Part shown: piece after piece, positions 3,136 to 59,415 of the stretch | How positions within the stretch are numbered: the first letter of the stretch is position 1 | How the letters are laid out: each line of letters opens with the position of its first letter | Source: a virus | IMG/VR virus record: IMGVR_UViG_3300027280_000002 | Coordinates: 47,330-111,329 of that record | DNA: 64,000 bases | Strand: one strand, 5' to 3' | Notes under the pieces: model-generated | Told to the model about the DNA's origin: nothing | The model's database searches: none | The model's input: the letters and a program-made list of their open reading frames with translations, nothing else | Translations under genes and position numbers: made by a program

Positions 3136-3153
3136 GTAAATAATTACATTCAT

Positions 3154-3183: not shown

Positions 3184-3216
3184 TCTCGAATATTTATAAA
3201 AATACATAAATAAAGT

Positions 3217-3255: not shown

Positions 3256-3295
3256 CAAGTAAAAAACCAAGTTTTAATAAAAAAAATAACTACAT

Positions 3296-31926: not shown

Positions 31927-32799
31927 ATGGCAACTAAAATAATAAACTTAAAAATAACAAGCTCTAGTCCTCAAGTAGGACCTTTTGAGATTACGGATGA
32001 CTTATCAAATGTCCTAGGAACCGATGTGTCTTTAAGTAGCCTTATTGTGGGCATAAGCTATAGGGTAGATGTTTCAGTTTCAGTGATTACTTTAACCTCT
32101 TCAGGTGATTGTAATTTTGTAAAAGAATTTTCAGTTAGAGATTCAGTACCTAGTATAGAATATATAACAGCTACATATACTCAAATTAAAACAGGATGTG
32201 TATGGACACACTTAAGAAACGATACTTTATATAATTATTACTATGGAGATATAGCTCCTTACATAATCGAGTATCCTTTTTCATATAAGTATCATGATCA
32301 AATATTACAGAATATAAAAGACTATAGTAAAGTGTATGTATATCTTCCATCTACATTAGGGTCATTTGATTCTAATAGCAAGGTGCAAGTAGATGATAAA
32401 TATTTTAATAAAGCTATTCTATATAACGATCAACAATCTACAGGAGTAATAGAACTTGTTCCTAAACCAATGAATGATTTAAGTTCATATTTAAATTATC
32501 CTATACTTAATTCTAATAGTAAAACTATTACTTTTGCAAAGACAGATAGTTTCTATCAATATAACACTTTCTGGGCACTACAAAAAAATGATAAGATTCC
32601 TTTATTTAAAACATCTTGTGAATCTGGCTCAATAGATAAAGTAGTTAATCAAGATAATATGAACTATGGTGACTTATCATTTAAGAAGTCACAACTAAGA
32701 GCTAAAGATTTAAAGGTGAGACACATACTAGACAACTCTTCTATAACACATATAGTAAGTCAATTTATTGTAGCACCAGCACAAATATCATATAAGTAA
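31927..32799 (+). CDS. GPF module fused to a probable split-off muzzle C-terminal domain
   Basis: 290 aa; VGPFEITD...TSSGDC, then VWTHL..LYNYYYG..PYIIEY and FNKAILYNDQQSTG, recalled as the distal muzzle segment. Confidence 0.55.
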   Translation: MATKIINLKITSSSPQVGPFEITDDLSNVLGTDVSLSSLIVGISYRVDVSVSVITLTSSGDCNFVKEFSVRDSVPSIEYITATYTQIKTGCVWTHLRNDTLYNYYYGDIAPYIIEYPFSYKYHDQILQNIKDYSKVYVYLPSTLGSFDSNSKVQVDDKYFNKAILYNDQQSTGVIELVPKPMNDLSSYLNYPILNSNSKTITFAKTDSFYQYNTFWALQKNDKIPLFKTSCESGSIDKVVNQDNMNYGDLSFKKSQLRAKDLKVRHILDNSSITHIVSQFIVAPAQISYK

Positions 32800-44600: not shown

Positions 44601-47600
44601 GTCTAAGAGAAGATTAGAGGAGATAAATAAACAGTTAGAGAAGGATAGAAAGAAACTAGCTATCATTAAGAAAGATCTTGAGTCTATCTATACAATGAAA
44701 GAGGGAGGTTCTAGAATAAAACTAACATATTCTAAGGCACAAAAGAATTTTACTAGAGCTATAAATAACTATACTGCTATGCAACAGGATACGCAAGATC
44801 GTATCACAGAGTTAGAAAGAGAGCAAGAAGAGCTTGATTTAAACACTTCATACTTTGAAGCATTTGAAGTAGATCTATTAGACCTACCAGGAAACACTAA
44901 AGAGTTTTTAAAAGAATTAAAAGATCAACTATCTTTACTAGAACAAAATGGTAAAGCTGTAAACAACGAAATAAAAGCTAATAACAAATTACTAGACTCT
45001 ATAAAGAAAGCTACTAAGAAGGCAGCTAAGTTACTTAAGAGTGCTTTAGAAACTACATATGTATATGATGAAGATTATGGTGATTATTTAAAAGATCTTT
45101 TAGAAAAGTCTGTGACTGGAGAAGACTTATTAAATACATGGCCTTTATTAAAACAAGAACTAGCTAACTTTAATCTTACTAACGACATACAAAAAGAAAC
45201 TAATGTTTCTGAGAGAGATGTGTTTGATGCATTAGAAAGTCGTAAAGAATTAGAAGCTACATTAGAGAGTCTAAGAAAAGAGTATGTAGCTAAGAAAGTT
45301 ATTGTAGATAGATTCCAAAGAGTAATGGATGAGTATGTTGTAGAAAAACAAAATCAAGATAAGATTGCTAATAATACTAAGTTGCTAGCAGACTTACAAC
45401 AAACTGCAAATACTGGTCCTGTAACAGATGCAGAACCAAAATCATTTGATCCTATTTCTAAAAAGTCTAATGACGTAATACCAAGAGCTAGTGTAGGTGA
45501 ACCTACAGGCCCAATACAGGATCATCAAGTTAGAGCTAATACATTTGGAGTAAACTTAAATAAGTTTGCGAATAGAAAGAATATTCGTGCTATATATTTA
45601 ACACTTAAGACCCAAGACCAAAAATTAGATGGGGTTGTACAAAGAATACTTGATAATGGTAGTCCAGAACTTATGGAAAAGTTTGGAGATTCTATTATTG
45701 TTATGGTGATGATAGATACAGCTGGTAACTTAGTAGGAGTTGATGGTCAACCTATACCTAACACTAAGAATCAACTAGACAATGCTATCTATCAAACTAT
45801 ACCTGAATCATCTCTTACAAACACTAAAGGTAGTTTGTTTAGAGTAGAGGATAGCGAAACAGCTGCAATTAAAAAACAGTTTGGTGTCTTTAGAAAAGGT
45901 ATTCTAGACAGGAATATGGTAGGTGTACCATTTAATATAGAAGCATCTTTTGGTATACCTCAATATGAACAAGACTCTAATGGAAATAATGTCTTAGGAA
46001 CTACATCTGTAGTAGAAGCAGACTTAATTAGTGAAACGGATTTATCTAAAACTAATGTAATATTTATTCCTACGACTAACAAGAATATATTTAAAGGTAC
46101 AGTTACGTACTCTCAACCTTTTGGTAGTGTATTTTTAGATCTACCTAATGGATATGTTAAGTTAAGAAATAGAAAACATACTACACAAGAAGCAGAAGCT
46201 ATATATGATTCTTTACATGCACTCTCTAAAGAGATAGTAGATTTAGATAAAGGAGCAACTAGTGATACATCAGTTCGATTATTTAACTTTTTAAAAGGTG
46301 TAACTTATTGGGGAATTCCTGTAGACACTAATGGTAATAGAAAAGCAACAGGACAAAATAGTGTGTTCTTTGAAAGAGAAATTGGTGAATCAATATCAGG
46401 AATAAATTTTACTAAGTTATCATTAAAAATGGGAGCATTTCCATCAGTGGATTTTAACCCTGTTTCTATATCAAAGAATAAAGAATTTATTATTGAGACG
46501 TTGGGCCAGATGTATAATAACATCGATAACTCTAATCTAAAAAACATAGACCAGTCCTTTGAGCAAATAACAAAAATAAATGAGAACGGTACAATAGAAT
46601 CAATAACGTGGCCTAATTACCAAACCTATCTATTATCTAAAAACATACCAGGAGGAGGTACAAGACAAGATTTTCAACTTCCTTTACATACTACAATGAA
46701 ACCTGTGGTAGAAGGTAGTGATGAGGTTAACAGAAGGGGTGTATATTTTGTAAATGAAGATAGTGCTGAAGATTTTATATCCGAAGTGGTGCCACCAAAG
46801 TCAACAAGAATTCAAGTAATAAGTCCAAAAGGACCAGCTGCGCCAACACAACAAACTAGTGAGGTTAGTTTAAATAAACAATCATCTTTAAGTACTATAG
46901 TTTCTTCATGGTTACAAACAGAGGAAGGTTCTTTAGACAACCAAACTGCAGAAGAATCAGCATCTAAGTTTGCTTTAATCTACAACAGAAAAAACCCTGT
47001 AACAGGTGAAGACAATAGATCAGTAGCTGAGATTATAGAAGGCAACAAAAGCTTAACACCTGGTCAAAGAAAAGATAACGCAGGTCAAGTAGGTACAGAT
47101 CTATTTAACACAATTGCTCAAGGCATGAGTGTTAGAGAAACTATATTGAATGAAATTAAAAATCAAACTTTATCTTTAAAACCAACACCACAAACTAGTG
47201 AGGTTGAAGTTGTATTAGATAACAAACAAACTAATACCTTTACCAGTCCTAAAGGCAAAAAGATTTTGTTTAAAGCTTCTCCAAGTACTACTGCTCAAAA
47301 CTATAAGGAAAAGGGACAGATTTCAGTTATGATGAATGATGACTTGAAACAATTACTTGCAGAAAATCCTGATGCTGCAACACAAGAAAAAATAAAGAAA
47401 AGTATAAAGTATGAGATCTATAATTATATAGCACCTGAGTTAGCTAAATTAAAAGAACAGGATGCAGAGGATGAAATGCAAATGACTCCTGAGATGTTTG
47501 ATCAGATCATGGCTGCAAGAAAACAAAAAGGTAAATCATCTCCAAGTAGTGATGTGCTAAACGCTTTAAAGAATGGACGTAATAATCAGAACAATGAAGT

Positions 47601-50600
47601 TCTACGTGAGGTTGTTACTGAGTCTATAGAGGGAATGAGTGAGGAGAACTGGAAAGATGCAAGAGCATGGATGTCTAAGAATTTACCTGGTGTTAGTTTC
47701 AATAGAGTTAAGAATATAATAAAAACTAAAGATGGAAAAAAAGCATGGGGATTCTTTGAAAACAATAGTATATATGTATATGAAAATGCAGAAGTAGGTA
47801 CAGTTTACCATGAAGCATTTGAAGCTGTCTTTGCACAATTCTTATCTCCACAAGAAAAGGAAAAACTATTTAATGAATTTACATCTCGCAAAGGAACTTT
47901 TGTAGACAGACCTACAGGAAGAACAGTAAAATATTCTCAAGCTACGAGAGATGAAATGAGAGAACAGTTAGCAGAAGACTTTAGAGATTATATACAAGAC
48001 AAGAAAAAACCAGAAGGTGGTTTCTTTTCTAGAGTATTTAAACAATTAAAGGATCTTATTGAAAAATGGTTTCTTAGTCCACAGTCACAAACTTATAGTA
48101 ATGAATTGTTTGACAAGATTGATGGAGGTGGCTTTGTGTCTTTGGATTACCTTCCTCTTTTACCTTTTGGGTTATTTAATTCTTATGATACTGTTGACTT
48201 TGCAACACCAGGAACTAGTGCTGTATTTAGAGTAGAAACAGGTCTTAGTGATGTGCAAGTACATGATACGATTGAGCACATGACATATCTTACACTGAGA
48301 AATATAATTGCAAATAACGAAAGTTTATTCTCAGTACCAGAACTTAATCAAACAGAGTTATATAGTAGATTAAAAGGTGAGGTTCTTGCTTCTGTAGGAC
48401 AGGTGGCCCAACAGTATAAAGACATTCGTCCTCAGTTTGAAAAGTCAACTGGAGGTCAATTACAAGAAATAGATAATAAAATAGATGAGACTGTAGATCT
48501 AATGCAAAGAATAGATGACTCATGGACTTATCTTACTAAAAAGCATAAAGAATATATACTATCTTTTGGGATTACTTTTGATGAAGCTGATCAGTTACAA
48601 CTAGAAGAAGATAGATCTAATAAAGGGTATAATTCTGATGCTACAAAAATAGATAACTTTAAAAAGACTGGAGCAGCAGTAAAATTATTACTAGCTACTG
48701 TTCCAGTAGTTACAGTTAATGAAAATGCAGATGTAAGATTTAGTCCTAGCACTATAAACGGTGTTAAGCTTCTTCCTGTTACACAAACATTTATTACTGT
48801 TTTAGAAAATGTTTCTAATGCTACTAGCATGGAGAACATGTTAGAGAAGTTAAGGGATGTTGCTCTTAATGATCCTAATTACTTATCTTTATATAAACGT
48901 CTTAGTGGAAGAGGTGCTAATGAAGGTGCAGTTAGTCTTGACAATATTACTGAAAGACATCAGTTAACCTTACTAGCAGCATTGTTTAAAACATTTAAAA
49001 AACAAAATCCTATTGTTAAAATAGTAAATGTATTAGAGAATGGAGAAACTGTAGTTTCTGAAGCTAATTTATCTACAGCATCTCGTCAGATGTCTCAACA
49101 GTATCTAAACTCTATTGTTACTACATCTAAGAGAGGTAATGGAATATTTAAGCAAGTGGGTGGAGTATTTAATCCAGACACTAAAAAGTTATCTAAATAT
49201 CCTTTAAATACTTTGCAGAACATGTTTAATTTCTTAGGAGGATTAGGCATACCTTTTAATGCAAAAGAGTACAATAATTTTGATGTAGGTCAAAAGAAAA
49301 GATTTGCATCAGCTGTTAATGGAATAAAGAAAAGTATTGAACAATCAAAAGATATTAAATTCTTTTCTACTAAATCATTAAACTTTGCTGGACAGATATT
49401 AAATTTAGCTACATTAAAAGTTATAGCTACTAACCCAGAGGTATCTAGTACATACTTTAATATAGATGGTGAGAGAGTTCAAACTTATATTGGAACTAAT
49501 GCTGCATCTGAAGTACATAACTTTATGACATCTGTAGGAAATAAGCAAGAACTAGGAGATACTCCTTATTCTTATTTATTAACTGATGTATTCGCACAAA
49601 ACTCTACTATAATAGAAAGAATATATGATGCAGAAGGTAACCTAAGAACAGATAAAGTAAATTTATTTAAGCCAGGATATGCTGGAGGAATACTCAATGG
49701 ACAAAAAGGTACTGCAAAGGGATCATCTCAGTTACAATTTCCTGATAGACTACGACAAGAATTAAATCAAAACATAAATGGTCAATATCTAAACCTTGTT
49801 CCTGGAGATTCTTCTTTAGAGCATACGTTAGAAATGGGCAATCCTATTACTGAAAGAGACATAGTAAGTGGAGGTGCAGTATTAAACACTGTAATGAAAG
49901 GTTATTTTCTTTCTGAAGTAGAATTAGCTAGAGAAAAACGTGATATAGTTGAGATAGATAATAGACAAACTTCTGACTTAAGATTCTTTAAAGAGATATT
50001 AGGAGAAGAATTGCATGAAGAGATAAGACAAAATGTTTTAGATCCTGCTTTAACAGCAGAACAAGTTTATGAACTCAGTGTAGATAAAATTATAGATGCT
50101 ACTTCTTCTTATATACAAAGAAATAAAAATCAATATGCTACTTTTTTATTAAAGTACGGAGTTATACAACAAGCTGAAAATGAGCAATCAGGAGAACTTA
50201 CAGATAGGTATACTGCATCAGGTGTAGAAGGTATGACAAATATGACTATACAAGAAATGGACAGAAAACTTCTTGTGCAGGAGATTAATTATATCATTTC
50301 TAACATAGAGATGCATAAAATACTATATGGAGATCCTTATGGATATAAAGATGAACTTAAACGTATTAAAAGTTTCTTATCTCCTAGACAAGCTATAGTT
50401 AACAACTCTCCACAATGGAACAATAGAGCAAATGAAATATGGAATAGAGGATTAGAAATAGATACTGTAGGTTATACTAAGTTTACTAGAGATTACTTTC
50501 GAACTGTAACAGGAGGAGATGTAAAAGGAGTAATAGATATACCTAATTATAAAGCATATACAGAGACTGATGGTGGAGGAATAATTTCTATAAAAGCTTA

Positions 50601-53600
50601 TCGTAACTTTAGAATTAGAACTGCAGACTGGAATGATGCACAAGAGAGTCAATATAGATATGATATAGCTTGGTACAAAAGACACAAGAGTTTACCACTT
50701 TCAAAATCAGAAAAAGATCTTTTAAAAGAAGGTAACCCTCAAGTACAGAGTACATACGTAACTCTTAAACCTATTGTTTCTGGTGCTAAACTAGATAAAG
50801 ACGGTAGTGTATCTGCTAATAATAATGTAGTGCTAGATAAATATGCATTATATCCTCTTTCATACAGAGTGATGCATGAAATAAATCCTACATCTAATAC
50901 TCTTAAGTTATATGATAAGATGCAAAAAGAAGATATAGATTATCTGGTCTTTGAGTCTGGTAGAAAAGTAGGAGCAGAAGGTATACATGATACATATAAT
51001 GATGATGGTGAGTTTAATAATGCAGAATATGAAAGTGTTATAAATATACCGTTTAATATTATAAGTCTGCAATCAGAAGTACCTTCTAAGGAAGATGGAA
51101 GAGTAACACGTGCAAGTCAAATTACTAAACTTATAACTCTAGATTACTTAGATAATGGTATGCCTATAGATTATAAAGGTGCACTTGATCAGTGGTTAAC
51201 TTTAACTGAAGAACAAAAACAAAAAGCATCAGTTATATATGCAGAGATTCAGAATAACACAAAGCTCTTAGATGAGATGACCAAGGAAGGTCTTAATGTT
51301 ATGATGAAAAAACTTGGTATTACCAGAGTAGGTAACGCATATAAAGTTACTGATTTGGCTCCAGCTGCTAAAACATTACGTGAGGAATTATTTAAAAGAG
51401 AGACTAATGATAATATAAGTGATGCTCTAGATGGATTTTTAATGGGAGATGCAGTTCTAGAAGCTACCCAATCATATAATCAGATTAGAAATATATTATA
51501 TTCTATAGTACAGAAAAGTATTGTACGTCCTAAGATAAACGGTGGACAGAAAGTGCAGATACCTTCAGCATTATTTGAGTCTACTCGTACAAAAAAAACC
51601 ACTATTAATGGTAAGATAGGTTATACTTCTGAGGTACTTAAGTTTTACAATAACTCAAAGGGAGAAAACGTAATGGAAGTTATGGTGGGTCGTTGGTTTG
51701 GTAGTAGCTTATCTGATGAGGCACTTCTAGAATACCTAAACAATACTGAGGAAGGTCAAAAGATATTACGTGGTGTAGCTTTCCGTATACCTACACAGAA
51801 ACAAAACTCTATTGATGCTATAAAGATAAAGCAATTCTTACCAAAAGAATTTGGGGATAATGTTGTTGTACCTGCTGCTCTAGTAGAGAAGGTGGGATCG
51901 GATTTTGATATTGATAAACTTTTCATGTATCTTAAAAATGTAACATACATTAATAATGAGTTACAGTTAATTCCATTTTATGGATATGGTGAACAATCCA
52001 AGAAAAGATTTGGAGAGTTATTTGATGCAGGTTCACTTCTTAATAAAGCTCAGCAAAAAGAATTACAAGCTCAAATAGATTTGTTTGAATCTGGAGAACT
52101 TGAAGGTGATTTAATTGAAGCTATATTTGGAGAAACCTTTGACAATCAGGATGTTATTGATGATTACATATTAGAACTTAAAGACAAAGGTATACGTCAG
52201 ACTGTAATAGATAGAATGTATATGAGATCTTTAGAGAATGAATTTATTCAGTCTACAGAGAATCTTATAACCTTTCCAGAAAACTATGAAAGATTAACTG
52301 TTCCAAATGACGCTAGTCAATTAGAAGAATTATCTAAAGAGATTGTAGACAAGACAAAAGAATCAGCATTTAACTATCGTAACGTTGGTAACTTACTAAA
52401 TAGAAGATTTATGGCTAGGTTACGTAATGCTTTTGTACAAGGTAAAAGAGGTATTGGTATTGCTGCAGTGAATCAAACTAACTTAGCACTTAACCAACAT
52501 TCTCCAGTATTTGTAGAACTAAATAGTATAAAGTTTAGAAGAAAAAATACTGTAAACATACCTGATAACGGTGAGATGATAAGTCTTTCTGGTGTCAAAA
52601 ATAAAGCTGAAGATTATATATCAGACATAAATGGACAAGTGATAGATGGCATGGTAGATATATCAGCAGGTCCATGGATTATAGAGTTAGGAATTACACC
52701 TGCTACAGCTTCTACATGGTTGTACTTAATTAAGGCTGGTGTACCAATAGATTCTGTAGCATACTTTATGAACCAACCTATCATTATTGACTATTTAAAC
52801 AAGATAGAAGAGAGTGGTTATACATGGTTATTTATAGAGGACTTTGCTAATGAGCTTAAAGAAAATAAATATGACAGCCCAAGTAACTTAACATCTGCTG
52901 AAAAACAACTTCTTCCTGATTCAAATGCATTACGTTCACAACTTGGTAAGACTACCTTTAGTAATAAAGATGCTGCATATCAAAGACTTATATTAGATGA
53001 GTTTTTAAACTACGCAAAGCAAGCTCAAGATCTATTTGAAGTAACACAAGGTACGAATTGGGATACCTCTACATTTAATGACCCTCTACTCATCTTTAAA
53101 AAAGAAGAACAATATTTAAATGCATTACAGAAACCCATATTTAGTTATGTAGATGGAAAAGTAATTCCAGCTGCTGAAGCTTTAGTACAAACCACTTTCT
53201 TAAAAGAAACTATATTGTCTCTTACACAAGCAAGAAATGGCATAGCTAACTTTCTTACATCAGATCAAGACAGGAGTAGAACAATCTTGCAAAAGGTTTT
53301 ACGTCCATACATTAATAGATCAGATAGAGATTTTATTAAAATTAGTAGAGCTGCAACAAATAGTTTCTTTGATTATGCAGTTCAGACAGATCAAAATTTA
53401 AACATGTTTCTAAAGTCTTTACTGATAGACAAAGATGGAATAGCTTTTCAAGTAGACAAGTTTGTCGAAGATGTATTAGGAAACCCTAACCATCCTTTAT
53501 ATGAAAACCAAGTAGTGCGACTATTGGAAAGTGATCCTAATAAACGTGTTGGGGATGTTGCTAATAATATAAAGTTAAGAAACAATGATAGAAAAGTTTA

Positions 53601-54546
53601 TGAACAGAACTCTATTATATATGCTTTCCGCCAACTTAAAGAAGAATTAGGTGATGGAAGTAATCTATATAGTAATATTTTAATAAGTTCTATACTACAG
53701 TCAGGTTTAAATAATTCTCCTATATCATTTACATCTTTGTTACCTTATGAAGACTTCCAAAAAATATACAATCAAACATTGTCTACCTTAGAAAAAAACC
53801 CTAACTTGAACGACTTCTATGAACTAGGTATGTTCGAGAGAAATAATTGGTCTGCTGGAAGTGGAATTGTTCCATCAAAGAAGGCTCCTTGGATACAAAC
53901 AGATCAAGGTAAAAGATACAATCCAGCAATGTTATACCTTCCTAAAAACATTAAAGCAAGTACAGCTACAAAAGCTATACCTCAATTAGTAACAATTGGT
54001 ACAGGGACTAGGGAAGGACAATCAGACTATATAACATATAGTTGGAACAGTGGAAGTTATGATGCTAAACAAAGAAAAGAAATGGCTTCTAAAGGAGACT
54101 TCTCATTTATTAATAAAGCTTTATTTAAGAAGATAAAGAGTGGAGATGAAGGTTTTATTCATTCTTACAAACAGAAAAAAACTGGTAAACTTATGGAATA
54201 TTTTGTATACAAACATATAAATGCACTAGGAGATTCTTATAGAGCTCAAGAATATTACATAAATGCTAAGCCTTCTGTATTTGATAATGGTTTATTAAAA
54301 GCAGAAGAGAAACAAGATGTTACTATAATAGAAGCATGGAAAGGAAAAGCTGCTGTAAGGCCAGTTGCTCAAAAGAATGACACATCAGACAGTAACCAAT
54401 TAGTTACTAAAACAGGTGCAGTCTATAAATTAAGTTTGTCAAATGCTACGTACAGTGAAGCTGCTATTAATACAGTGCTATTAACAGAGCTAGGGTATAC
54501 AGAAGAACAAGCAGGTGAGATATTTGAAGAAATTTGTAAAATATAA
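41683..54546 (+). CDS. Giant virion RNA polymerase polyprotein (crAss/phi14:2-type two-barrel RNAP) with degenerate zincin
   Basis: ~4287 aa from ATG 41683; catalytic GSDFDIDK (DFDID 51901-51915), FRIPTQ (51781), ETDGGG, TLKP and DKYAL; HEAFE at 47809; Gly/Ala-rich hydrophobic N-region. Confidence 0.88.
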   Translation: MAKDIKKAQTGINIPPMANVPSPTSSNQSFMQERFGGYREPGNPRPMPNISTRPNLGVVKPNNGNQPSGLDLLLRDASTRGDRGKGDRITTADEYEGADRYDYFQPSSMGVDNEDMAGQYQSLGSKAVNGVTKGLILAGTTFIQGTAGLVNGVYQAINDGKFSSFYDNEFNRGLDGINKWSEDAMPNYYTAAERDANFYSPKYWATGNFVFDGVIKNLGFAAGAYLTGGAYTNVLKALPGTSRLFSMGKAAETLAATEKGLSAANKGAGVYGEIKALSDSFLAQYNLLNPAGRAVVAGLSTTGEAGIEALHNSNEFRQELIDEFKKEYGVVPGAEQMDNINAAVEGAGNASFYANVGILTASNYVIFPRIARSSFKADKRAINGLVREIDDIAYEGGKYAAKTSKLHPILRTLNNIRPYTFTVSEGLEEVSQYGSSVGTQDYYNKQYNNEATSWLTSIGVGLTKGVFSDEGAKNALIGGLSGGIMTGRGRYRRNQQRAADTAEAIELLNDFQLSDFTKESIYSNNRAGVLGEELEQAAERGDMLSYKNLESQYIINYLTPRIKYGRLDLVMQDIADMKKLSSTEQGFAQLVAEGKVQEGETKETFIARLENFKQTANDVNSLYQSLELRYGGITEEGVDGKRYRTYGPAVINKMIYAASTVADTDSRIPQLSAELQAAIPTLNIQEILQDLISGEVESFNNAVNQIQNLDILSDKKDVLGEKLNDVAALAKIRELMLQEYELIKTNPKNFQEKPLRQQDSVKTYEEILEDDANTFVIKAKNGEQSLQIGQEYFVGQGVNFEGETPLDEPVVISSFVPVGQNEDGTIQIKDQSGQVRDISPDVLLDYNVGRKSTLVNNKTANFYYRHRDKVFEFNFGKNFGGKRKGRLMYDNGKLFFVYKDSNGTILKKELANKFFAPQPGFDQARITPVGKVTAEQQDAANQFLSPEELAKNEQTLQSNRENRLKIMNDLGVESKRRLEEINKQLEKDRKKLAIIKKDLESIYTMKEGGSRIKLTYSKAQKNFTRAINNYTAMQQDTQDRITELEREQEELDLNTSYFEAFEVDLLDLPGNTKEFLKELKDQLSLLEQNGKAVNNEIKANNKLLDSIKKATKKAAKLLKSALETTYVYDEDYGDYLKDLLEKSVTGEDLLNTWPLLKQELANFNLTNDIQKETNVSERDVFDALESRKELEATLESLRKEYVAKKVIVDRFQRVMDEYVVEKQNQDKIANNTKLLADLQQTANTGPVTDAEPKSFDPISKKSNDVIPRASVGEPTGPIQDHQVRANTFGVNLNKFANRKNIRAIYLTLKTQDQKLDGVVQRILDNGSPELMEKFGDSIIVMVMIDTAGNLVGVDGQPIPNTKNQLDNAIYQTIPESSLTNTKGSLFRVEDSETAAIKKQFGVFRKGILDRNMVGVPFNIEASFGIPQYEQDSNGNNVLGTTSVVEADLISETDLSKTNVIFIPTTNKNIFKGTVTYSQPFGSVFLDLPNGYVKLRNRKHTTQEAEAIYDSLHALSKEIVDLDKGATSDTSVRLFNFLKGVTYWGIPVDTNGNRKATGQNSVFFEREIGESISGINFTKLSLKMGAFPSVDFNPVSISKNKEFIIETLGQMYNNIDNSNLKNIDQSFEQITKINENGTIESITWPNYQTYLLSKNIPGGGTRQDFQLPLHTTMKPVVEGSDEVNRRGVYFVNEDSAEDFISEVVPPKSTRIQVISPKGPAAPTQQTSEVSLNKQSSLSTIVSSWLQTEEGSLDNQTAEESASKFALIYNRKNPVTGEDNRSVAEIIEGNKSLTPGQRKDNAGQVGTDLFNTIAQGMSVRETILNEIKNQTLSLKPTPQTSEVEVVLDNKQTNTFTSPKGKKILFKASPSTTAQNYKEKGQISVMMNDDLKQLLAENPDAATQEKIKKSIKYEIYNYIAPELAKLKEQDAEDEMQMTPEMFDQIMAARKQKGKSSPSSDVLNALKNGRNNQNNEVLREVVTESIEGMSEENWKDARAWMSKNLPGVSFNRVKNIIKTKDGKKAWGFFENNSIYVYENAEVGTVYHEAFEAVFAQFLSPQEKEKLFNEFTSRKGTFVDRPTGRTVKYSQATRDEMREQLAEDFRDYIQDKKKPEGGFFSRVFKQLKDLIEKWFLSPQSQTYSNELFDKIDGGGFVSLDYLPLLPFGLFNSYDTVDFATPGTSAVFRVETGLSDVQVHDTIEHMTYLTLRNIIANNESLFSVPELNQTELYSRLKGEVLASVGQVAQQYKDIRPQFEKSTGGQLQEIDNKIDETVDLMQRIDDSWTYLTKKHKEYILSFGITFDEADQLQLEEDRSNKGYNSDATKIDNFKKTGAAVKLLLATVPVVTVNENADVRFSPSTINGVKLLPVTQTFITVLENVSNATSMENMLEKLRDVALNDPNYLSLYKRLSGRGANEGAVSLDNITERHQLTLLAALFKTFKKQNPIVKIVNVLENGETVVSEANLSTASRQMSQQYLNSIVTTSKRGNGIFKQVGGVFNPDTKKLSKYPLNTLQNMFNFLGGLGIPFNAKEYNNFDVGQKKRFASAVNGIKKSIEQSKDIKFFSTKSLNFAGQILNLATLKVIATNPEVSSTYFNIDGERVQTYIGTNAASEVHNFMTSVGNKQELGDTPYSYLLTDVFAQNSTIIERIYDAEGNLRTDKVNLFKPGYAGGILNGQKGTAKGSSQLQFPDRLRQELNQNINGQYLNLVPGDSSLEHTLEMGNPITERDIVSGGAVLNTVMKGYFLSEVELAREKRDIVEIDNRQTSDLRFFKEILGEELHEEIRQNVLDPALTAEQVYELSVDKIIDATSSYIQRNKNQYATFLLKYGVIQQAENEQSGELTDRYTASGVEGMTNMTIQEMDRKLLVQEINYIISNIEMHKILYGDPYGYKDELKRIKSFLSPRQAIVNNSPQWNNRANEIWNRGLEIDTVGYTKFTRDYFRTVTGGDVKGVIDIPNYKAYTETDGGGIISIKAYRNFRIRTADWNDAQESQYRYDIAWYKRHKSLPLSKSEKDLLKEGNPQVQSTYVTLKPIVSGAKLDKDGSVSANNNVVLDKYALYPLSYRVMHEINPTSNTLKLYDKMQKEDIDYLVFESGRKVGAEGIHDTYNDDGEFNNAEYESVINIPFNIISLQSEVPSKEDGRVTRASQITKLITLDYLDNGMPIDYKGALDQWLTLTEEQKQKASVIYAEIQNNTKLLDEMTKEGLNVMMKKLGITRVGNAYKVTDLAPAAKTLREELFKRETNDNISDALDGFLMGDAVLEATQSYNQIRNILYSIVQKSIVRPKINGGQKVQIPSALFESTRTKKTTINGKIGYTSEVLKFYNNSKGENVMEVMVGRWFGSSLSDEALLEYLNNTEEGQKILRGVAFRIPTQKQNSIDAIKIKQFLPKEFGDNVVVPAALVEKVGSDFDIDKLFMYLKNVTYINNELQLIPFYGYGEQSKKRFGELFDAGSLLNKAQQKELQAQIDLFESGELEGDLIEAIFGETFDNQDVIDDYILELKDKGIRQTVIDRMYMRSLENEFIQSTENLITFPENYERLTVPNDASQLEELSKEIVDKTKESAFNYRNVGNLLNRRFMARLRNAFVQGKRGIGIAAVNQTNLALNQHSPVFVELNSIKFRRKNTVNIPDNGEMISLSGVKNKAEDYISDINGQVIDGMVDISAGPWIIELGITPATASTWLYLIKAGVPIDSVAYFMNQPIIIDYLNKIEESGYTWLFIEDFANELKENKYDSPSNLTSAEKQLLPDSNALRSQLGKTTFSNKDAAYQRLILDEFLNYAKQAQDLFEVTQGTNWDTSTFNDPLLIFKKEEQYLNALQKPIFSYVDGKVIPAAEALVQTTFLKETILSLTQARNGIANFLTSDQDRSRTILQKVLRPYINRSDRDFIKISRAATNSFFDYAVQTDQNLNMFLKSLLIDKDGIAFQVDKFVEDVLGNPNHPLYENQVVRLLESDPNKRVGDVANNIKLRNNDRKVYEQNSIIYAFRQLKEELGDGSNLYSNILISSILQSGLNNSPISFTSLLPYEDFQKIYNQTLSTLEKNPNLNDFYELGMFERNNWSAGSGIVPSKKAPWIQTDQGKRYNPAMLYLPKNIKASTATKAIPQLVTIGTGTREGQSDYITYSWNSGSYDAKQRKEMASKGDFSFINKALFKKIKSGDEGFIHSYKQKKTGKLMEYFVYKHINALGDSYRAQEYYINAKPSVFDNGLLKAEEKQDVTIIEAWKGKAAVRPVAQKNDTSDSNQLVTKTGAVYKLSLSNATYSEAAINTVLLTELGYTEEQAGEIFEEICKI
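46843..47205 (+). repeat. 24-bp direct repeats flanking an in-frame cassette (339-nt period)
   Basis: CCAACACAACAAACTAGTGAGGTT 46843-46866 and CCAACACCACAAACTAGTGAGGTT 47182-47205, one mismatch. Confidence 0.85.
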
Positions 54547-54549
54547 GAA

Positions 54550-57500
54550 ATGGCGACATGTCCTAATATAAATTTACCAGAGTGGAAAGAGCTGGTTGCT
54601 GCCCAAGGTAAAGCAAGAGCATACTTTCTATGGAATGAGTATAGTGGTGATGTTCCTGGACAGGAATACACTGGTGTAGCAGGTGTTGAATCTATTTCCC
54701 CTAAAGTAAAACAACTTATAGCTAAAATGGGTGTAGACATTCTAGACCTACAAACTTATGCAGAGCAAAATCCTGATATAGATATTAGTGGTGCTTATGC
54801 TATTGCAGATGCTGTTGGAAAGATGATTGCTATAAGTGAAGGGTCTACAGATGTAGAGGTGACAGAAGAGATAGTGCACATTGCCACTCAAATAATAGAA
54901 GAAAAGAATCCTGGTTTAGTTACAGAAATGATATCTAAAATAGGTAGATTTAAAATATATAAGGACACATTAAAACAGTATAGGAACATTCCAGCTTATC
55001 AATTAGAAGATGGAAGACCTAATATTAGAAAGATAAAAAAAGAAGCTGCAGATAAACTAATTACTCAATTAGTCTCTAGTAGTCTAACTGAAACCGAAAT
55101 CTCTGAAGAGTTGTTAGAAGAAGAGAATGCTTCTATATTTAGAAGAATTTGGAATGATATAACTGACTGGTTCAAAGGACAGTATGCAAAATCTAATTTA
55201 AATATATTTCAAACAGCAGCTGATCAAGTTGTTGAAGGGGTAGAGGGAAGTTTAATTGATGGTACACCTAGAGAGATATACTTTTCTGTAACAGATGCTC
55301 AAAAGAATATACAGAGAGAACTATTAGAAACTCAGAAAATTCTTAGAAGTGTTCCTGTGGTAAAAGAGAACTCTAATCCTTTACTAGGTGATGAGATAAG
55401 TAATGAATATGAATTGTATGTAGACGGTGAATGGAAAAAGAATCCAAAAAGAGTAACAGACCAAGTAAAAAAATACTATTTAGAAAAGTTTAAAAATAAA
55501 CCACCGTTTACCAAAGAAGAGGATAGAGATAATGAGTTTAAAAAACAACTTGGTATAGAGTTTCATGATTACTTTCAAGAGATTCATTCTAGATACTTTA
55601 ATGAAGATGGCACAAGAAGAGAAGTTTCTAAACCTCGTCCTGTAATAGAAGATTCTAAAAAGGCTGTAGTCTATGCAAAGTTAGAAACATACTATACAAA
55701 TCTTGTTGCAGAATATTCTAAAGATGGAAAGACTCCTCTCGTATTTTCTGAGATAAAAGTATATAATAAAAAAGAAAAGGAAGCTGGTACGATTGATCTT
55801 CTTATCATAGATGAAAATGGTAAGGCTAATATATATGATTGGAAGTTTATGAGTATGTCTAAAACAGCTGAAGATGTATCTAATTACAAACAAGGTGCAT
55901 TTGGTATACAGCTTAGGTCATACAAAAATATATTACAGCAAGACTACGGAGTTAAAGAGATAGGAAAAAATAGAGCTGTTCCTATTTCTCTTGAATTGAA
56001 AAGAGAAAACTTTCAAGACAGTAAGTCTCCTTTAACTTTTACTGGTATAGGTATAGGTAGTGTAAACCCTACTGAAATAGAACCACTCTACTATACCCCT
56101 GTATCAGAAAAATCAGAGAAAACAGGATTTGAAGAATTAGACGACCTTATATCTAAACTAAATGCTGTATACGGTCAGATAAGTAAAACAATACCCAATG
56201 ACGAACTGTCAAAAAACAGTAAGAAAAATAGACTTGGGATTCTTAAACAGGCAATACGTCAAGCTCAGGCTAATGAAAACATCACTCCTACTATAGATGC
56301 TTTAAGAGTAATACAAACTGAAGGAGAAAATATTATAGCTGAGTATAAAACTATATATGAAGGAAGACCTGCACAATCAACAGACTTCGAAAATTCACAA
56401 CTTTCAGACTTCTCTAATAGAATAGATAACTATAAAGAACAAGCAAGTGCATTCAGTAAAATAAATGAAGAACTGTCTCCAATACTTCAAGCTGCTCAAA
56501 GTATTTCTAAAGAAGATAAGGCACGCATTCAAATTGACATAGATGCAAAAGCTCGTATGTTAAATATAAATGTTTCTGAGATAGAAAAAATAAGTGGTGA
56601 ATTTATAGACAAGTTTGTAGGACTAAGAAATAATGAAACAGGACTATTAGAACCCCAAGCTTTATTGAGAGGGCTTAAGGCAAGGTTCCGAAGTTTATCA
56701 GAGTTACCTCTGCCTTCACTAAGGATACTATCTAGACTAGCTAGAATAGCACAGTCAAAAGGACAAACTAAGTCATTAGAAGATGTTAATAAACTTTTAG
56801 AAATTAGAGATAAGATTAAGGAAAAAGGTGGTAATTTATTAAATACTGTAAATCCCTTATATCAAAAAGATAAAAAAGGAAGATTAGTAAATAAACTTGT
56901 ATACAAATATTCTAAAGACTTCTATGACGCTGTTAAGGATAACGCTCAAGAAGGAAATAGAAGTAAAGCGTGGTTACAGGACAATGTAGACTTATCAGCA
57001 TATAAGTTAGAAGCTGATAAAATGATTCAGAAACAGTTAGCTAGTAATAAAGAAGGATATGAAGATGAAGAATTAAGAAAGGAACTTGATCTGAAAGCTA
57101 AACGCATGTATGATGTGACTAGAAATGACTTTACTGGATGGGATAACTACATAATAAAAAGACACCCTTTGTCTAAATGGGAGTCAGTTGAATATCTTAA
57201 TATTAAAAAAGATAAGGATCTACTTGAGTTATATAATTTTACTCAAAAAATGAATGACGAAGCTGAAAAGATGGGTTATCTTCAAGGAAAAATTGCTAGC
57301 ACATTCTTACCTTTTGTTCGTAAAGGAACAGCAGAATCTCTTTCCTGGGAAAATGGTTTAAGTGTTTTACAAAACTTTGGAAAATCATTAACCAGAAGAG
57401 CAGATGATATAGGATATGGATCTATAAATGAGATTACAGGTGAAACAGAAAATGGTATACCTAAATACTATACTAGTGATTTTAGTAGAACTGAAGACCC

Positions 57501-59415
57501 TGAAGTAAATGACATGACTGATGTATCATTAGAATTCTTTAAAAATCAAATACTTTATATTCAACAGATGAATAAGTATAAGTACATGAAGGAAATTGAA
57601 GGACAGATAAATCTAGTTAGAACTATAGTACAAGCAAAAGATCATTACAAAACTAGTCCTAATTCCAAAGTGATAAGTGAAGGGGGAGAACCTGTAGTTG
57701 AAAAAGGTAATAAAAACAATGCAAAGATTTTTGACTTGTTTATGGAAACAATTATGTATGATAACGCATTTCCAGATGATAGTGAAGATTTTGGTATACC
57801 TACTGGGAAAATAAGAAAAGGTATAAATAGTGTTTGGACGCAAATGACAGGTAAACCTTTGTTTAAAGAAGGTGAGAAAGGAACTAACTATTCTATTGTT
57901 AAGAGTATGCAAGTTTTAAATAATGCTTTTCAAATGAAAACATTAGGATTAGAACCTATCTCTGGTGCGGTAAGTCTTTTTGGTGCAAACATTCAAGTAG
58001 CAGCACAGTCAGGTAACTACTTTAATTTTAGAGAGTACGTTAAGAATGAATTAAAAGTTTTAGGAAACTGGAGTAGAAAAAAAAGTGGTGTAGAAACAAA
58101 ACAAATGAAAGTTTTTGAGCAACTAACTGACTTGTTTATGCCGCTTAAAGATAGTCCTATATATGAAAAGTTAAAGACGTCTGGTGTAAACCTATCTACA
58201 AGACTTGACATGGAAGCAGGTGATACATTGTTTGCATTTTTCAGACAACCAGAAATAGTCTTAGAAAAAGGATTGTTCATGACTCTTTTAGATAACACAA
58301 TGGTTATTGATGGAAAGCTAATAAACATACCTGAGTTTGTAAGAAATAAATATAAAAATAGATACAACAACGCTGAAACATTTAGTAACATTAAAGGTGA
58401 TATAGAATCTGAAATACAAGATCTTAAAAAGAATAAATCCATAACTAGCACTTCTAAACTAGGAGAGAATGGTAAAGTAGAAGTTCCAGGTTTAAATTTA
58501 AATGACAGGAAAGAATTACAACGTATTACAGACCTCACAAGAACTTTAGCTAGAAATGCTACAGGTGGCTTTACAGACTTTGATAGTATTAAAATGAACA
58601 TGAACATCTGGACTAAGTCTATGATGGTATTTAAAGGGTGGATACCTAAACTTGTAGACACAAGGTTTAGTGAGTTTAGAAAAGTGGGAGATGACTTTAA
58701 TGTAAGAGTTGATGAAAATGGAATTCTTACTGGAGAGAAATATGATATTGGTAGAATAAGACTGTTCGTTGGTAATTTTCTGTCAGTTAATATATTAAAA
58801 AGTATAAGAGAGCTTCGATCAATAGGAGCAGTGGGAGGTACTTTAAACGATGAAGGTTTAGAAAAGTTAGATAAGATGTTTGAATACTACTCTACTTTCT
58901 ATAAAGAAACTACTGGTAAACCTTTCAACATGTCTAGAGAAGATTTTATAGACATGGTTAGAACTAATACTAGAAAACAATTACAAGAACTTCTTTTGTT
59001 AGTAGGATTAAATCTAATGCTATTTGCAGTAGGGTTTATGGAACCAGACGAAGATGATAGAGCTTCAAAAAACTGGTTCTATTTTCAAGAGAAAACTCTT
59101 AGAAGATTTCAACAAGAGCTTATGTTCTTTTATAACCCCTCAGAGTGGAGTGCTACTCTTGAAGGTGGTCTTTTCCCTTCTCTTTCATTACTAAGTGAGA
59201 TGGAAAAATTCATTACCCAATCTACTAAAGAAATTACAGGATATGATTACAGTGATCCAAATAAATCTGAACAGGACGTAAGAAGAGATGCTGTTCCTGT
59301 AAAGTATTTTATGAAACTATTACCTGTAACTAAATCTTTAGTACAGTGGTTATCAATATTTGATATCGGCTTTGCTGAAGAAATGGATGTAACAATAAAT
59401 GCACGTCCAAGATAA
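54550..59415 (+). CDS. Large cargo protein with degenerate zincin (EEIVH) and PD-(D/E)XK nuclease-like domain
   Basis: 1621 aa; EEIVH 54865-54879; GIEFH..SE...AGTIDLL...IYDWK...QLRSY (~55550-55925); hydrophobic segment near the C-terminus. Confidence 0.7.
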   Translation: MATCPNINLPEWKELVAAQGKARAYFLWNEYSGDVPGQEYTGVAGVESISPKVKQLIAKMGVDILDLQTYAEQNPDIDISGAYAIADAVGKMIAISEGSTDVEVTEEIVHIATQIIEEKNPGLVTEMISKIGRFKIYKDTLKQYRNIPAYQLEDGRPNIRKIKKEAADKLITQLVSSSLTETEISEELLEEENASIFRRIWNDITDWFKGQYAKSNLNIFQTAADQVVEGVEGSLIDGTPREIYFSVTDAQKNIQRELLETQKILRSVPVVKENSNPLLGDEISNEYELYVDGEWKKNPKRVTDQVKKYYLEKFKNKPPFTKEEDRDNEFKKQLGIEFHDYFQEIHSRYFNEDGTRREVSKPRPVIEDSKKAVVYAKLETYYTNLVAEYSKDGKTPLVFSEIKVYNKKEKEAGTIDLLIIDENGKANIYDWKFMSMSKTAEDVSNYKQGAFGIQLRSYKNILQQDYGVKEIGKNRAVPISLELKRENFQDSKSPLTFTGIGIGSVNPTEIEPLYYTPVSEKSEKTGFEELDDLISKLNAVYGQISKTIPNDELSKNSKKNRLGILKQAIRQAQANENITPTIDALRVIQTEGENIIAEYKTIYEGRPAQSTDFENSQLSDFSNRIDNYKEQASAFSKINEELSPILQAAQSISKEDKARIQIDIDAKARMLNINVSEIEKISGEFIDKFVGLRNNETGLLEPQALLRGLKARFRSLSELPLPSLRILSRLARIAQSKGQTKSLEDVNKLLEIRDKIKEKGGNLLNTVNPLYQKDKKGRLVNKLVYKYSKDFYDAVKDNAQEGNRSKAWLQDNVDLSAYKLEADKMIQKQLASNKEGYEDEELRKELDLKAKRMYDVTRNDFTGWDNYIIKRHPLSKWESVEYLNIKKDKDLLELYNFTQKMNDEAEKMGYLQGKIASTFLPFVRKGTAESLSWENGLSVLQNFGKSLTRRADDIGYGSINEITGETENGIPKYYTSDFSRTEDPEVNDMTDVSLEFFKNQILYIQQMNKYKYMKEIEGQINLVRTIVQAKDHYKTSPNSKVISEGGEPVVEKGNKNNAKIFDLFMETIMYDNAFPDDSEDFGIPTGKIRKGINSVWTQMTGKPLFKEGEKGTNYSIVKSMQVLNNAFQMKTLGLEPISGAVSLFGANIQVAAQSGNYFNFREYVKNELKVLGNWSRKKSGVETKQMKVFEQLTDLFMPLKDSPIYEKLKTSGVNLSTRLDMEAGDTLFAFFRQPEIVLEKGLFMTLLDNTMVIDGKLINIPEFVRNKYKNRYNNAETFSNIKGDIESEIQDLKKNKSITSTSKLGENGKVEVPGLNLNDRKELQRITDLTRTLARNATGGFTDFDSIKMNMNIWTKSMMVFKGWIPKLVDTRFSEFRKVGDDFNVRVDENGILTGEKYDIGRIRLFVGNFLSVNILKSIRELRSIGAVGGTLNDEGLEKLDKMFEYYSTFYKETTGKPFNMSREDFIDMVRTNTRKQLQELLLLVGLNLMLFAVGFMEPDEDDRASKNWFYFQEKTLRRFQQELMFFYNPSEWSATLEGGLFPSLSLLSEMEKFITQSTKEITGYDYSDPNKSEQDVRRDAVPVKYFMKLLPVTKSLVQWLSIFDIGFAEEMDVTINARPR

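What the first reader, a model, noticed from the sequence alone, without database searches (positions are those of the whole stretch)
54535..54561. Only two cysteines in ~8,800 aa of cargo, facing each other across the RNAP junction
Seen by manual scan: ORFs 32799, 35320 and 38976 have no Cys; the RNAP has one, third from the end (EEICKI); the next protein has one at position 4 (MATCPN). Tail proteins are Cys-rich by contrast. Known: coliphage N4 virion RNAP lacks Cys, which has been linked to passage through the envelope. Inference: the retained pair forms a tail-to-head disulfide or metal bridge that chains the two proteins for packaging or ordered ejection and is released in the reducing cytoplasm.
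Basis: partly seen in the sequence, partly recalled or inferred. Interest (0 to 1): 0.8.

Follow-up and report, generated by a model that had tools for sequence, protein, structure and literature searches.

The report
Terminal cysteine pair links crAss cargo
In this uncultured crAss-like phage, about 8,800 residues of injected proteins contain only two cysteines, one at the tail end of the giant RNA polymerase and one at the head of the next protein; relatives keep such a pair wherever these genes are split and lack it where they are fused, which points to an untested end-to-end disulfide tether.

Summary
Five consecutive ORFs (32799-59415; 8,836 aa) hold two Cys where about 137 are expected. 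One is third from the end of the 4,287-aa RNAP protein (TGT 54535-54537). The other is residue 4 of the next, 1,621-aa protein (TGT 54559-54561).

The pair is under strong selection:
- 120 of 120 giant homologues carry a Cys 1-7 residues from the C-end.
- 116 of 120 homologues of the next protein have exactly one Cys, at residue 3-5.
- 46 of 46 distinct junctions in IMG/VR loci have Cys on both sides, in many unrelated sequence contexts. 6 of 6 neighbouring control junctions have none.

The pair follows gene architecture. Three-protein phages (crAss001, phi14:2, cr111_1) have two pairs. Fused forms lack the pair at the fused site. One close relative split the giant gene with a diverged copy of the whole junction cassette.

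Cyanophage A4 has the same signature, and cryo-EM shows its Cys1715-Cys5 disulfide (PMC12002296). It shares no detectable sequence homology with this phage.

A tail-to-head disulfide is the best reading, but it has not been tested chemically. I found no paper describing this for Crassvirales. This scan has already noted the same rule in at least 125 other genomes.

The parts
32799..35318 (+). Cargo-block protein, 839 aa, no Cys
   Evidence: No Pfam or PHROG hit. Its junction with the next ORF has no Cys on either side.
35320..38895 (+). Cargo-block protein, 1,191 aa, no Cys
   Evidence: No family hit.
38976..41672 (+). Cargo-block protein, 898 aa, no Cys. Its junction with the giant protein is a Cys-free control junction.
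   Evidence: The equivalent 850-940-aa protein | giant junctions in relatives have no terminal Cys in 6 of 6 cases.
41683..54546 (+). Giant virion RNAP protein, 4,287 aa. It is a colinear fusion of crAss001 gp47-like and gp50-like parts. Its single Cys is at 4285.
   Evidence: tblastn to crAss001 gp50 'putative RNA polymerase' and to cr4_1 at E 5e-18. blastp: gp47 89-832 aligns with giant 118-761, and gp50 1176-1803 with giant 3080-3706. P0123 is the identical database gene call.
51901..51915 (+). DFDID catalytic motif of the two-barrel RNAP
   Evidence: D3407-D3411 are invariant in alignment A1. The motif is described for crAss virion RNAPs in Drobysheva et al..
54394..54543 (+). C-terminal 'tail' mini-domain of about 50 aa, tethered by a disordered linker. 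It ends in a helix that carries the Cys.
   Evidence: AF2 model of the last 250 aa. Residues 201-250 have pLDDT 81-86. Helix 237-249 holds Cys248. The linker at 186-200 has pLDDT below 50.
54535..54537 (+). TGT, Cys4285, third residue from the C-end of the giant protein
   Evidence: It is the only invariant Cys column in A1. A Cys lies 1-7 aa from the end in 120 of 120 homologues and within 10 aa in 111 of 112 full-length representatives.
54544..54552 (+). Stop TAA, 3-nt spacer, start ATG of the next gene
   Evidence: In relatives the stop-start gap varies from -4 to +21 nt.
54559..54561 (+). TGT, Cys4 of the downstream protein
   Evidence: M1, A2, C4 and N6 are invariant in A2. 116 of 120 homologues have exactly one Cys, at residue 3-5.
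54550..54657 (+). N-terminal 'head' module, residues 1-36: MAxCPNxN..W..LV...G...A..LW..Y.G.VP
   Evidence: Invariant columns in A3. AF2: residues 1-9 coil, helices 10-19 and 21-30. A duplicated copy sits at the new split site in L019.
54550..59415 (+). Downstream cargo protein, 1,621 aa, in the position of crAss001 gp49. It contains a PD-(D/E)XK nuclease-like domain at residues 309-481.
   Evidence: Pfam PF12705 at E 2.8e-5, 24.6 bits against a cut-off of 22. phrog_298 'exonuclease'.

Best explanation
The giant RNAP protein and the next protein belong to the virion-packaged, host-injected RNA-polymerase module of a crAss-like phage. All cysteines have been purged from this cargo, as in other ejected phage proteins. 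The exception is one Cys on the last turn of the giant protein's C-terminal helix and one on the flexible N-terminal arm of the next protein.

I propose three steps (all inferred):
1. The roughly 50-aa tail mini-domain docks onto the roughly 36-aa head module of the next protein.
2. The two thiols then form an inter-chain disulfide. This probably happens once the particle leaves the reducing cytoplasm.
3. The link sits only 3-4 residues from each chain end, so the two proteins become one quasi-linear thread of about 5,900 residues. That thread can be packed in fixed stoichiometry, pass unfolded and in order through the tail channel, and fall apart when reduced in the new host's cytoplasm.

What is shown: the Cys pattern, its conservation, its tracking of gene splits and fusions, and a structural precedent in another phage. 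What is inferred: docking, the bond itself, its timing, and its role in packaging or ejection.
For: 1. Depletion. Two Cys in 8,836 aa against about 137 expected. Across 112 full-length representatives, Cys makes up 0.0435% of 485,001 aa.

2. Conservation in changing contexts.
- 120 of 120 giant homologues have a Cys 1-7 aa from the C-end. Contexts include ICKI, KCKG, KSIC, DPFTC, TSKKC and NNDTCVPF.
- 116 of 120 downstream homologues have one Cys only, at residue 3-5. Contexts include MATCPN, MPCKIQ, MSCNDK, MACNVQ and MSKCAL.
- 46 of 46 distinct junctions in IMG/VR loci have both Cys, once one miscalled start is corrected.
- 6 of 6 control junctions (preceding cargo protein | giant) have neither.
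- Both TGT and TGC are used (37:9 and 39:7), and the stop-start spacing runs from -4 to +21 nt. Selection therefore acts on the protein.

3. The pair tracks architecture.
- crAss001: gp47 has its only Cys at -3; gp50 has Cys5 and Cys at -9; gp49 has only Cys5. gp47 is on the opposite strand.
- phi14:2: gp078 has its only Cys as the last residue; gp077 (the crystallised RNAP) has only Cys3 and Cys2179 of 2,180; gp076 has only Cys3.
- cr111_1 follows the same pattern.
- Suoliviridae cr4_1, cr118_1 and cr60_1 have the window's architecture and the same pair.
- p-crAssphage-like LMMB and crAss002 fuse the other junction. They keep only the pair between the zincin protein and the fusion protein.
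- 0 of 112 fused giants have an N-terminal Cys. All 4 stand-alone gp50-like forms in the same clade do.
- The outer ends of the module never carry a Cys.

4. Portable cassette. In L019, a close relative, the giant gene is split into proteins of 2,015 and 2,149 aa. The new junction is a diverged duplicate of the old one (...KKCKG* / MGVCPNIKLPEW...). The tail is 53% identical over 17 aa and the head 61% over 44 aa (E 8e-17). The cassette sits in the variable linker that corresponds to giant residues 1851-2187.

5. Precedent. Cyanopodophage A4 gp27 (1,717 aa) has Cys1715 as its only Cys. gp26 (1,114 aa) has Cys5 as its only Cys. Cryo-EM shows the gp27 C-terminal helix docked in gp26 and a Cys1715-Cys5 disulfide (PMC12002296).

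6. Disulfides occur in crassvirus particles. Several structural disulfides are resolved in the crAss001 tail and in gp57 (PMC10172136).

7. Models place both Cys in exposed terminal elements.

8. Co-fold of tail (120 aa) with head (110 aa): weak support. The score was 0.32 and the best control 0.02. That mark was reached by 58 of 80 solved complexes and 2 of 110 mismatched pairs, but scores at or below 0.60 came from only 7 of those 80 solved complexes and from both mismatches that passed. The runs agreed in at least 36% of contacts and partner pLDDT was at least 46.
Against: - There is no chemical evidence for any crassvirus: no reducing versus non-reducing gel and no linked peptide. None of the papers I could read mentions these cysteines.
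- The co-fold is only weak, and no interface was reported.
- Tail and head lie within 30 nt of each other in most genomes, so their co-variation could be simple co-inheritance.
- The host cytoplasm is reducing and the gut is anoxic, so it is unclear when a disulfide would form.
- In genomes with two junctions the two heads resemble each other (crAss001, phi14:2, L019). Pairing specificity is therefore unexplained.
- cr273_1 carries a 49-aa extension after the tail Cys. Some gut clades (cr272_1, LMMB) have several internal Cys.
- A4 shares no detectable sequence homology with this cargo, so the precedent is an analogy.
Confidence: 0.6

Rival explanations
1. The tail and head dock as proposed, but the two thiols are ligands of a bridging metal ion (Zn, Fe or Cu), or of a cluster shared by several copies, rather than partners in a disulfide.
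For: It uses the same conservation and split/fusion data. A metal bridge could form in the reducing cytoplasm during assembly, which removes the timing problem.
Against: Each side contributes only one Cys. No His, Cys, Asp or Glu is conserved next to it across the many tail and head types. The Cys can be the very last residue (52 of 120), which is a poor position for a defined metal site. In the one solved analogue the two Cys form a disulfide.
Confidence: 0.1
2. The terminal Cys do not pair with each other. Each links its protein to a third partner (portal, inner capsid, another cargo protein) or to a second copy of itself, tail to tail and head to head.
For: Terminal Cys conservation alone does not say who the partner is. 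A4 ejection proteins form multimeric rings.
Against: The numbers of tail Cys and head Cys always match within a genome. The outer ends of the module never carry a Cys. Fusion removes both at once, and a new split brings both at once as a single cassette. The other Cys-free cargo proteins have no such ends.
Confidence: 0.1
3. The terminal Cys are sites of a covalent modification, for example S-acylation, that anchors the ejected proteins to the host membrane, or they act as catalytic nucleophiles in a processing or ligation reaction.
For: N-terminal M-x-C and C-terminal Cys resemble eukaryotic lipidation sites (my own knowledge). N4 virion RNAP associates with membranes.
Against: No fixed motif surrounds the Cys, and its distance from the end varies (1-7 and 3-5 residues). 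The module's outer ends lack a Cys. The Cys disappear on fusion, which makes no sense for a membrane anchor. No modifying enzyme is known in these phages.
Confidence: 0.04
4. The two TGT codons are kept for a nucleotide-level reason, such as a translational-coupling signal or RNA structure at the gene junction. The amino acids would be incidental.
For: The stop and start overlap as TAATG in many relatives, which is typical of translational coupling. In this window the two Cys codons lie 21 nt apart.
Against: TGC replaces TGT in 9 of 46 tails and 7 of 46 heads. The spacing and surrounding sequence vary widely. In crAss001, gp47, which carries the tail Cys, is encoded on the opposite strand, far from the start of gp50.
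Confidence: 0.02

Closest known systems
Cyanopodophage A4 (Anabaena phage A-4L) ejection proteins gp27 and gp26, with the Cys1715-Cys5 disulfide in the pre-ejectosome (PNAS 2025, PMC12002296)
   Same: These are two consecutive genes for capsid-internal ejection proteins. The upstream protein has its only Cys third from the C-end. The downstream protein has its only Cys at residue 5. A C-terminal helix docks into the next protein, and cryo-EM shows a disulfide locking it. The window shows the same sequence signature and a predicted terminal helix.
   Different: No sequence similarity to the window's cargo was found (phmmer and profile searches), and Foldseek found no PDB match for the head region. 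A4 is a small T7-like podophage with no virion RNAP. The paper mentions the bond in passing as a stabiliser and does not present it as a general rule. In Crassvirales the pairs join up to three giant proteins and follow gene splits and fusions.
Virion RNA-polymerase cargo module of Crassvirales: crAss001 gp47, gp50, gp49 (Bayfield 2023, PMC10172136) and phi14:2 gp65-gp66-gp67, which are GenBank gp078/077/076 (Drobysheva 2020/2021)
   Same: The window's proteins are homologous to this module: gp47-like and gp50-like parts, the DFDID motif, and the same gene order after the tail and cargo genes. The module proteins are detected in virions. They are known to be variably fused, sometimes into one polyprotein. 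They carry the same terminal Cys pairs.
   Different: In the window gp47-like and gp50-like are fused into one protein of 4,287 aa, so only one pair remains. The papers discuss proteolytic cleavage of fused forms. The texts I searched contain no mention of cysteines or an inter-protein link.
Cys-free ejection proteins of Schitoviridae (N4 gp50-52, DEV gp71-73; PMC11445570)
   Same: They include a giant virion-packaged RNAP that is ejected into the host. Near-total suppression of Cys is conserved across the ejection operon and is attributed to passage through the envelope.
   Different: The N4 RNAP is a T7-like single-subunit enzyme, unrelated to the two-barrel crAss enzyme. No conserved terminal Cys are retained there: the few Cys found in that survey were attributed to annotation or sequencing error.

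Membership tests
Crassvirales virion RNAP cargo module (crAss001 gp47/gp50/gp49) | Two-barrel RNAP catalytic motif DFDxD in a giant protein | tested here: met
   DFDID lies at residues 3407-3411 of the 4,287-aa protein and is invariant in A1.
Crassvirales virion RNAP cargo module (crAss001 gp47/gp50/gp49) | Sequence homology to gp50 (RNAP) and gp47 (RNAP-associated protein) | tested here: met
   tblastn found 106 crassvirus records, the best being cr4_1 at E 5e-18. blastp gave gp47 E 1e-30 and gp50 E 7e-12, both colinear.
Crassvirales virion RNAP cargo module (crAss001 gp47/gp50/gp49) | Homology of the downstream protein to gp49 | tested here: inconclusive
   blastp of crAss001 gp49 against the 1,621-aa protein gave no hit at E <= 0.01. 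Its position, its size and its single N-terminal Cys match gp49. Suoliviridae cr4_1 gp27 and cr118_1 gp15 share the M-I-C-P-N start.
Crassvirales virion RNAP cargo module (crAss001 gp47/gp50/gp49) | Proteins present in the virion and ejected into the host | not testable with these tools
   This is shown only for crAss001 and phi14:2 by mass spectrometry and rifampicin-resistant early transcription.
Head-to-tail disulfide-linked ejection proteins (cyanophage A4 gp27-gp26 type) | Sole Cys near the C-end of the upstream protein and sole Cys near the N-end of the next-encoded protein | tested here: met
   Window: Cys at -3 and at +4. A-4L: Cys at -3 and at +5.
Head-to-tail disulfide-linked ejection proteins (cyanophage A4 gp27-gp26 type) | C-terminal helix of the upstream protein docks onto the downstream protein | tested here: inconclusive
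   A terminal helix is predicted. The co-fold gave weak support: 0.32 against a best control of 0.02, and no interface was reported.
Head-to-tail disulfide-linked ejection proteins (cyanophage A4 gp27-gp26 type) | Disulfide physically present in the virion | not testable with these tools
   This needs non-reducing gels, mass spectrometry or cryo-EM of particles.
Head-to-tail disulfide-linked ejection proteins (cyanophage A4 gp27-gp26 type) | Sequence or fold homology to A4 gp26/gp27 | tested here: not met
   phmmer and profiles A1/A2 against A-4L gp26-29 gave no hit at E <= 10. The PDB profile search gave none. Foldseek on the head model gave no match at E <= 0.001.
Cys-suppressed ejection operon of Schitoviridae (N4-like) | Near absence of Cys in the ejected proteins | tested here: met
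   2 Cys in 8,836 aa.
Cys-suppressed ejection operon of Schitoviridae (N4-like) | T7-like single-subunit virion RNAP | tested here: not met
   The enzyme carries a DFDID two-barrel motif and matches crassvirus RNAPs only.

The most novel reading that the evidence does not exclude
The junction as a whole (tail mini-domain with Cys, stop, start, head module with Cys) is a portable 'split cassette'. Dropped into a linker, it lets a giant cargo gene be cut into separately translated pieces that re-join after translation into one continuous thread. Crassviruses would then eject their whole RNAP module (5,900 to more than 9,000 residues) as a single disulfide-stitched chain in a fixed order, and the host's reducing cytoplasm would cut it into active parts. 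Middle units that carry both a head and a tail could in principle also join to each other.
Probability: 0.3. Interest if true: 0.85.

Novelty: new variant of a known kind. Interest (0 to 1): 0.72.

Why it matters
It is an open question how podovirus-like phages pack and then inject several giant proteins, in order, through a channel narrower than the folded proteins. The crassvirus papers say so explicitly. A redox-cleavable end-to-end tether would explain three things at once: fixed stoichiometry, ordered threading, and release and activation in the host.

It would also explain why these genes fuse and split so freely across the order, because a peptide bond and a terminal disulfide would be interchangeable.

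The idea can be tested directly in cultured phages (phi14:2, crAss001) with a non-reducing gel or a search for linked peptides.

The rule also helps annotation. It places start codons (crAss002 gp33) and identifies members of the RNAP module in uncultured genomes.

Tried and rejected
- **Window against cultured phages.** blastn and tblastn of the junction and of the downstream protein against the 'phages' collection found nothing. Only the RNAP core matched.
- **Family searches.** Pfam, PHROGs and PDB sequence searches of the giant protein and the three upstream cargo proteins found no family.
- **PDB searches for the downstream protein.** The profile of the downstream protein (A2) had no PDB hit. 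Foldseek on the 300-aa head model gave no match at E <= 0.001.
- **A4 homology.** A4 gp26-29 against the window cargo, by phmmer and profiles, gave nothing. The A4 parallel is therefore an analogy.
- I could not fetch the neighbours of the stand-alone forms P0274, P0290 and P0295. The search for related loci gave L019 for P0243 instead.
- **Sulfhydryl oxidase.** Evr1/Alr was not found in the phage's own genome, but the control genomes did not ring either, so the search is uninformative.
- **Split intein.** Considered and rejected. The tail has only 0-6 residues after the Cys, and there is no intein block.
- **Lipobox or CaaX-type motifs.** Rejected. There is no signal peptide and no fixed spacing.
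- **Tolerance of Cys at disordered ends.** Rejected, because the Cys is invariant.
- **Tail/head co-variation as independent proof of contact.** Not used as such, because the two segments are adjacent in the DNA and are inherited together.


Full report
**Observation.** The window is the right-hand 64 kb of a 111,329-bp virus record that is about 98% complete. On the + strand, tail-type genes are followed by five large ORFs.

| ORF | Length | Cys |
|---|---|---|
| 32799-35318 | 839 aa | 0 |
| 35320-38895 | 1,191 aa | 0 |
| 38976-41672 | 898 aa | 0 |
| 41683-54546 | 4,287 aa | 1, third from the end (EEICKI*) |
| 54550-59415 | 1,621 aa | 1, residue 4 (MATCPN) |

The giant ORF is 4,302 aa if read from TTG 41638. 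ATG 41683 matches the database gene call P0123.

The finding's coordinates run exactly from the first TGT to the second, across TAA, 3 nt and ATG. The other long ORFs hold 179 Cys in 11,512 aa (1.55%). About 137 Cys would therefore be expected in the 8,836 cargo residues, which gives P(<=2) of about 2e-56. Two random positions would both fall within 4 aa of one junction with P of about 3e-6.

**What the proteins are.**
- The giant protein has no Pfam, PHROG or PDB sequence hit.
- Its core carries DFDID.
- The core matches 106 crassvirus records by tblastn, including crAss001 gp50 'putative RNA polymerase'.
- blastp shows it is a colinear fusion. crAss001 gp47 aligns with residues 118-761 and 1995-2104. 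gp50 aligns with residues 3080-3706.
- The downstream protein has a weak but above-threshold PD-(D/E)XK nuclease domain. It occupies the position of gp49.
- In crAss001, gp45, 46, 47, 49 and 50 are virion cargo by mass spectrometry and are thought to be ejected partly unfolded (PMC10172136).
- In phi14:2 the RNAP is delivered into the cell, and its two neighbours are also in the virion. Some phages fuse the three proteins.

**Conservation.**
- Seven IMG/VR relatives (45-75% identity) all keep C-K-x-stop and M-A-x-C-P-N.
- In the 5.8-billion-protein collection, 116 of 120 homologues of the downstream protein have exactly one Cys, at residue 3-5. This holds even where the following sequence is unrelated (MPCKIQIK, MSCNDKKK, MACNVQLN). 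Two of the four exceptions (P0058, P0117) look like miscalled starts and one (P0083) is a 953-aa fragment.
- All 120 giant homologues have a Cys 1-7 residues from the C-end, in many contexts. 65 of them have no other Cys.
- An exhaustive phmmer search with the RNAP core gave 112 full-length representatives. 111 have a C-terminal Cys and none has an N-terminal Cys. Total Cys is 0.0435% of 485,001 aa.
- Across IMG/VR loci, 46 of 46 distinct module junctions have Cys on both sides, after correcting one miscalled start (L048).
- The 6 junctions between the preceding ~850-940-aa cargo protein and the giant protein have none.
- TGT and TGC are both used, and the stop-start distance ranges from -4 to +21 nt.

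Selection therefore acts on the residues and not on a DNA signal.

**The pair tracks gene architecture.**
- Three separate proteins carry two pairs.
  - crAss001: gp47 Cys at -3; gp50 Cys5 and Cys at -9; gp49 Cys5. gp47 lies on the other strand.
  - phi14:2: gp078 has its only Cys as the last residue; gp077 has only Cys3 and Cys2179; gp076 has only Cys3.
  - cr111_1 shows the same pattern.
- A gp47~gp50 fusion carries one pair. This is the case in the window and in Suoliviridae cr4_1, cr118_1, cr60_1 and cr272_1.
- A gp50~gp49 fusion also carries one pair, at the other junction. This is the case in LMMB and crAss002.
- Within the window's own clade, the four stand-alone gp50-like proteins all have an N-terminal Cys as well as a C-terminal one. 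None of the 112 fused forms has an N-terminal Cys.
- The two outer ends of the module never carry a Cys.

**A portable junction.** L019 is on the same contig as L003. Its giant gene is split into proteins of 2,015 and 2,149 aa. The new junction reads ...IKKCKG* / MGVCPNIKLPEW... and the old one reads ...AKCKG* / MATCPNINLPEW.... The tails are 53% identical over 17 aa. The heads are 61% identical over 44 aa (E 8e-17).

Compared with the fused form, the cassette lies in a variable linker corresponding to giant residues 1851-2187, and the head is an insertion. So the gene was cut by a copy of the complete tail-stop-start-head unit, and both Cys have been kept since. This is hard to explain unless tail and head work as a pair.

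**Structure predictions.**
- The last 50 residues form a linker-tethered mini-domain whose final helix carries the Cys.
- In the downstream protein, residues 1-9 are a coil that holds Cys4, followed by a helical hairpin.
- Co-folding tail and head gave weak support only. The score was 0.32 against a best control of 0.02. That mark was reached by 58 of 80 solved complexes and 2 of 110 mismatched pairs, but scores at or below 0.60 came from only 7 of those 80 solved complexes and from both mismatches that passed. The runs agreed in at least 36% of contacts, and partner pLDDT was at least 46.

**Comparison with what is known.** Cys suppression in ejected proteins is established for N4-like phages and is linked to envelope passage (PMC11445570).

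A lead from this scan's earlier notes took me to cyanopodophage A4. I checked two things:
- In the paper, the gp27 C-terminal helix docks in gp26 and is locked by a Cys1715-Cys5 disulfide seen by cryo-EM.
- In the A-4L genome, these are the only Cys in the 1,717-aa and 1,114-aa proteins.

That is the window's signature. There is no detectable homology between the two systems.

crAss001 particles do contain structural disulfides. The phi14:2 preprint, the crAss001 atlas, the 2023 Crassvirales review and the 2026 N4 paper do not mention these cysteines. Other searches found nothing further.

**Verdict.** The best reading is a tail-to-head disulfide that stitches the RNAP module into one quasi-linear chain for packaging and ordered ejection, and that is cleaved by reduction in the host (confidence about 0.6). 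The rivals are a metal bridge, third-party or homotypic links, a covalent modification, and a DNA-level signal. Each fits the split/fusion bookkeeping less well.

The bond chemistry and its function are untested. The same rule has been noted by this scan in at least 125 other genomes. This window adds three things: the two-protein architecture in a marine clade, the control junctions, and the duplicated junction cassette.

Noticed in passing
L014:15951-16050 (Bacteroides phage crAss002 gp33): The annotated start gives a first Cys at residue 35. Met33 gives MSCTPSNP, which fits the N-terminal-Cys rule and matches LMMB's MSCGNIK. The annotated start is probably 32 codons too early.
   Followed up: partly
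L104:23520-23800 (cr273_1 gp35/gp36 junction): The tail Cys is kept (…HKAC…) but is followed by a 49-aa low-complexity extension before the stop. This was the only junction I saw where the Cys is not within 10 residues of the end. The next protein still starts MFCPN.
   Followed up: partly
window 51673-51675 (giant residue M3331, motif MEVMVGRWF): About half of the giant homologues, probably including crAss001 gp50 at C1334, carry a second conserved Cys about 950-1,250 aa from the C-end. In alignment A1 it falls on this position, 76 aa before DFDID. The window's clade has Met there instead.
   Followed up: partly
G000:C1:14672-14887 (-), outside the window: The phage genome encodes an 83-aa thioredoxin-like ORF (PF00085, E 2e-15). 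cr111_1 also has an annotated thioredoxin. It is probably linked to nucleotide metabolism, but it could bear on the redox handling of the cargo.
   Followed up: no
window 55474-55992: The downstream cargo protein contains a PD-(D/E)XK nuclease-like domain with a D...D-W-K motif (PF12705, 24.6 bits; phrog_298). This would make it an injected nuclease candidate. gp47 of crAss001 shows weak similarity to the same stretch (E 0.002).
   Followed up: partly
homologues P0160, P0176, P0195, P0202, P0205, P0219 and others: Giant RNAP proteins of relatives carry varying extra Pfam domains: PF08719, the kinase PF13671, the 2OG oxygenase PF13532, the helicase set PF13604/PF13245/PF13538, PF25176 and PF11887. 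This suggests that exchangeable payload domains ride on the injected chain.
   Followed up: no
window 47233-48243 (giant residues 1851-2187): This variable linker region does not align between the window and the split relative L019. It is where L019 and probably P0274, P0290 and P0295 are cut.
   Followed up: partly
window 59943-63998: The next ORF is open at the window end. It has at least 1,352 aa and 15 Cys, five of them in the first 50 residues. It marks an abrupt return to Cys-rich proteins right after the cargo block. L019 has a homologous start (MSKLICAADP, 23 Cys).
   Followed up: no
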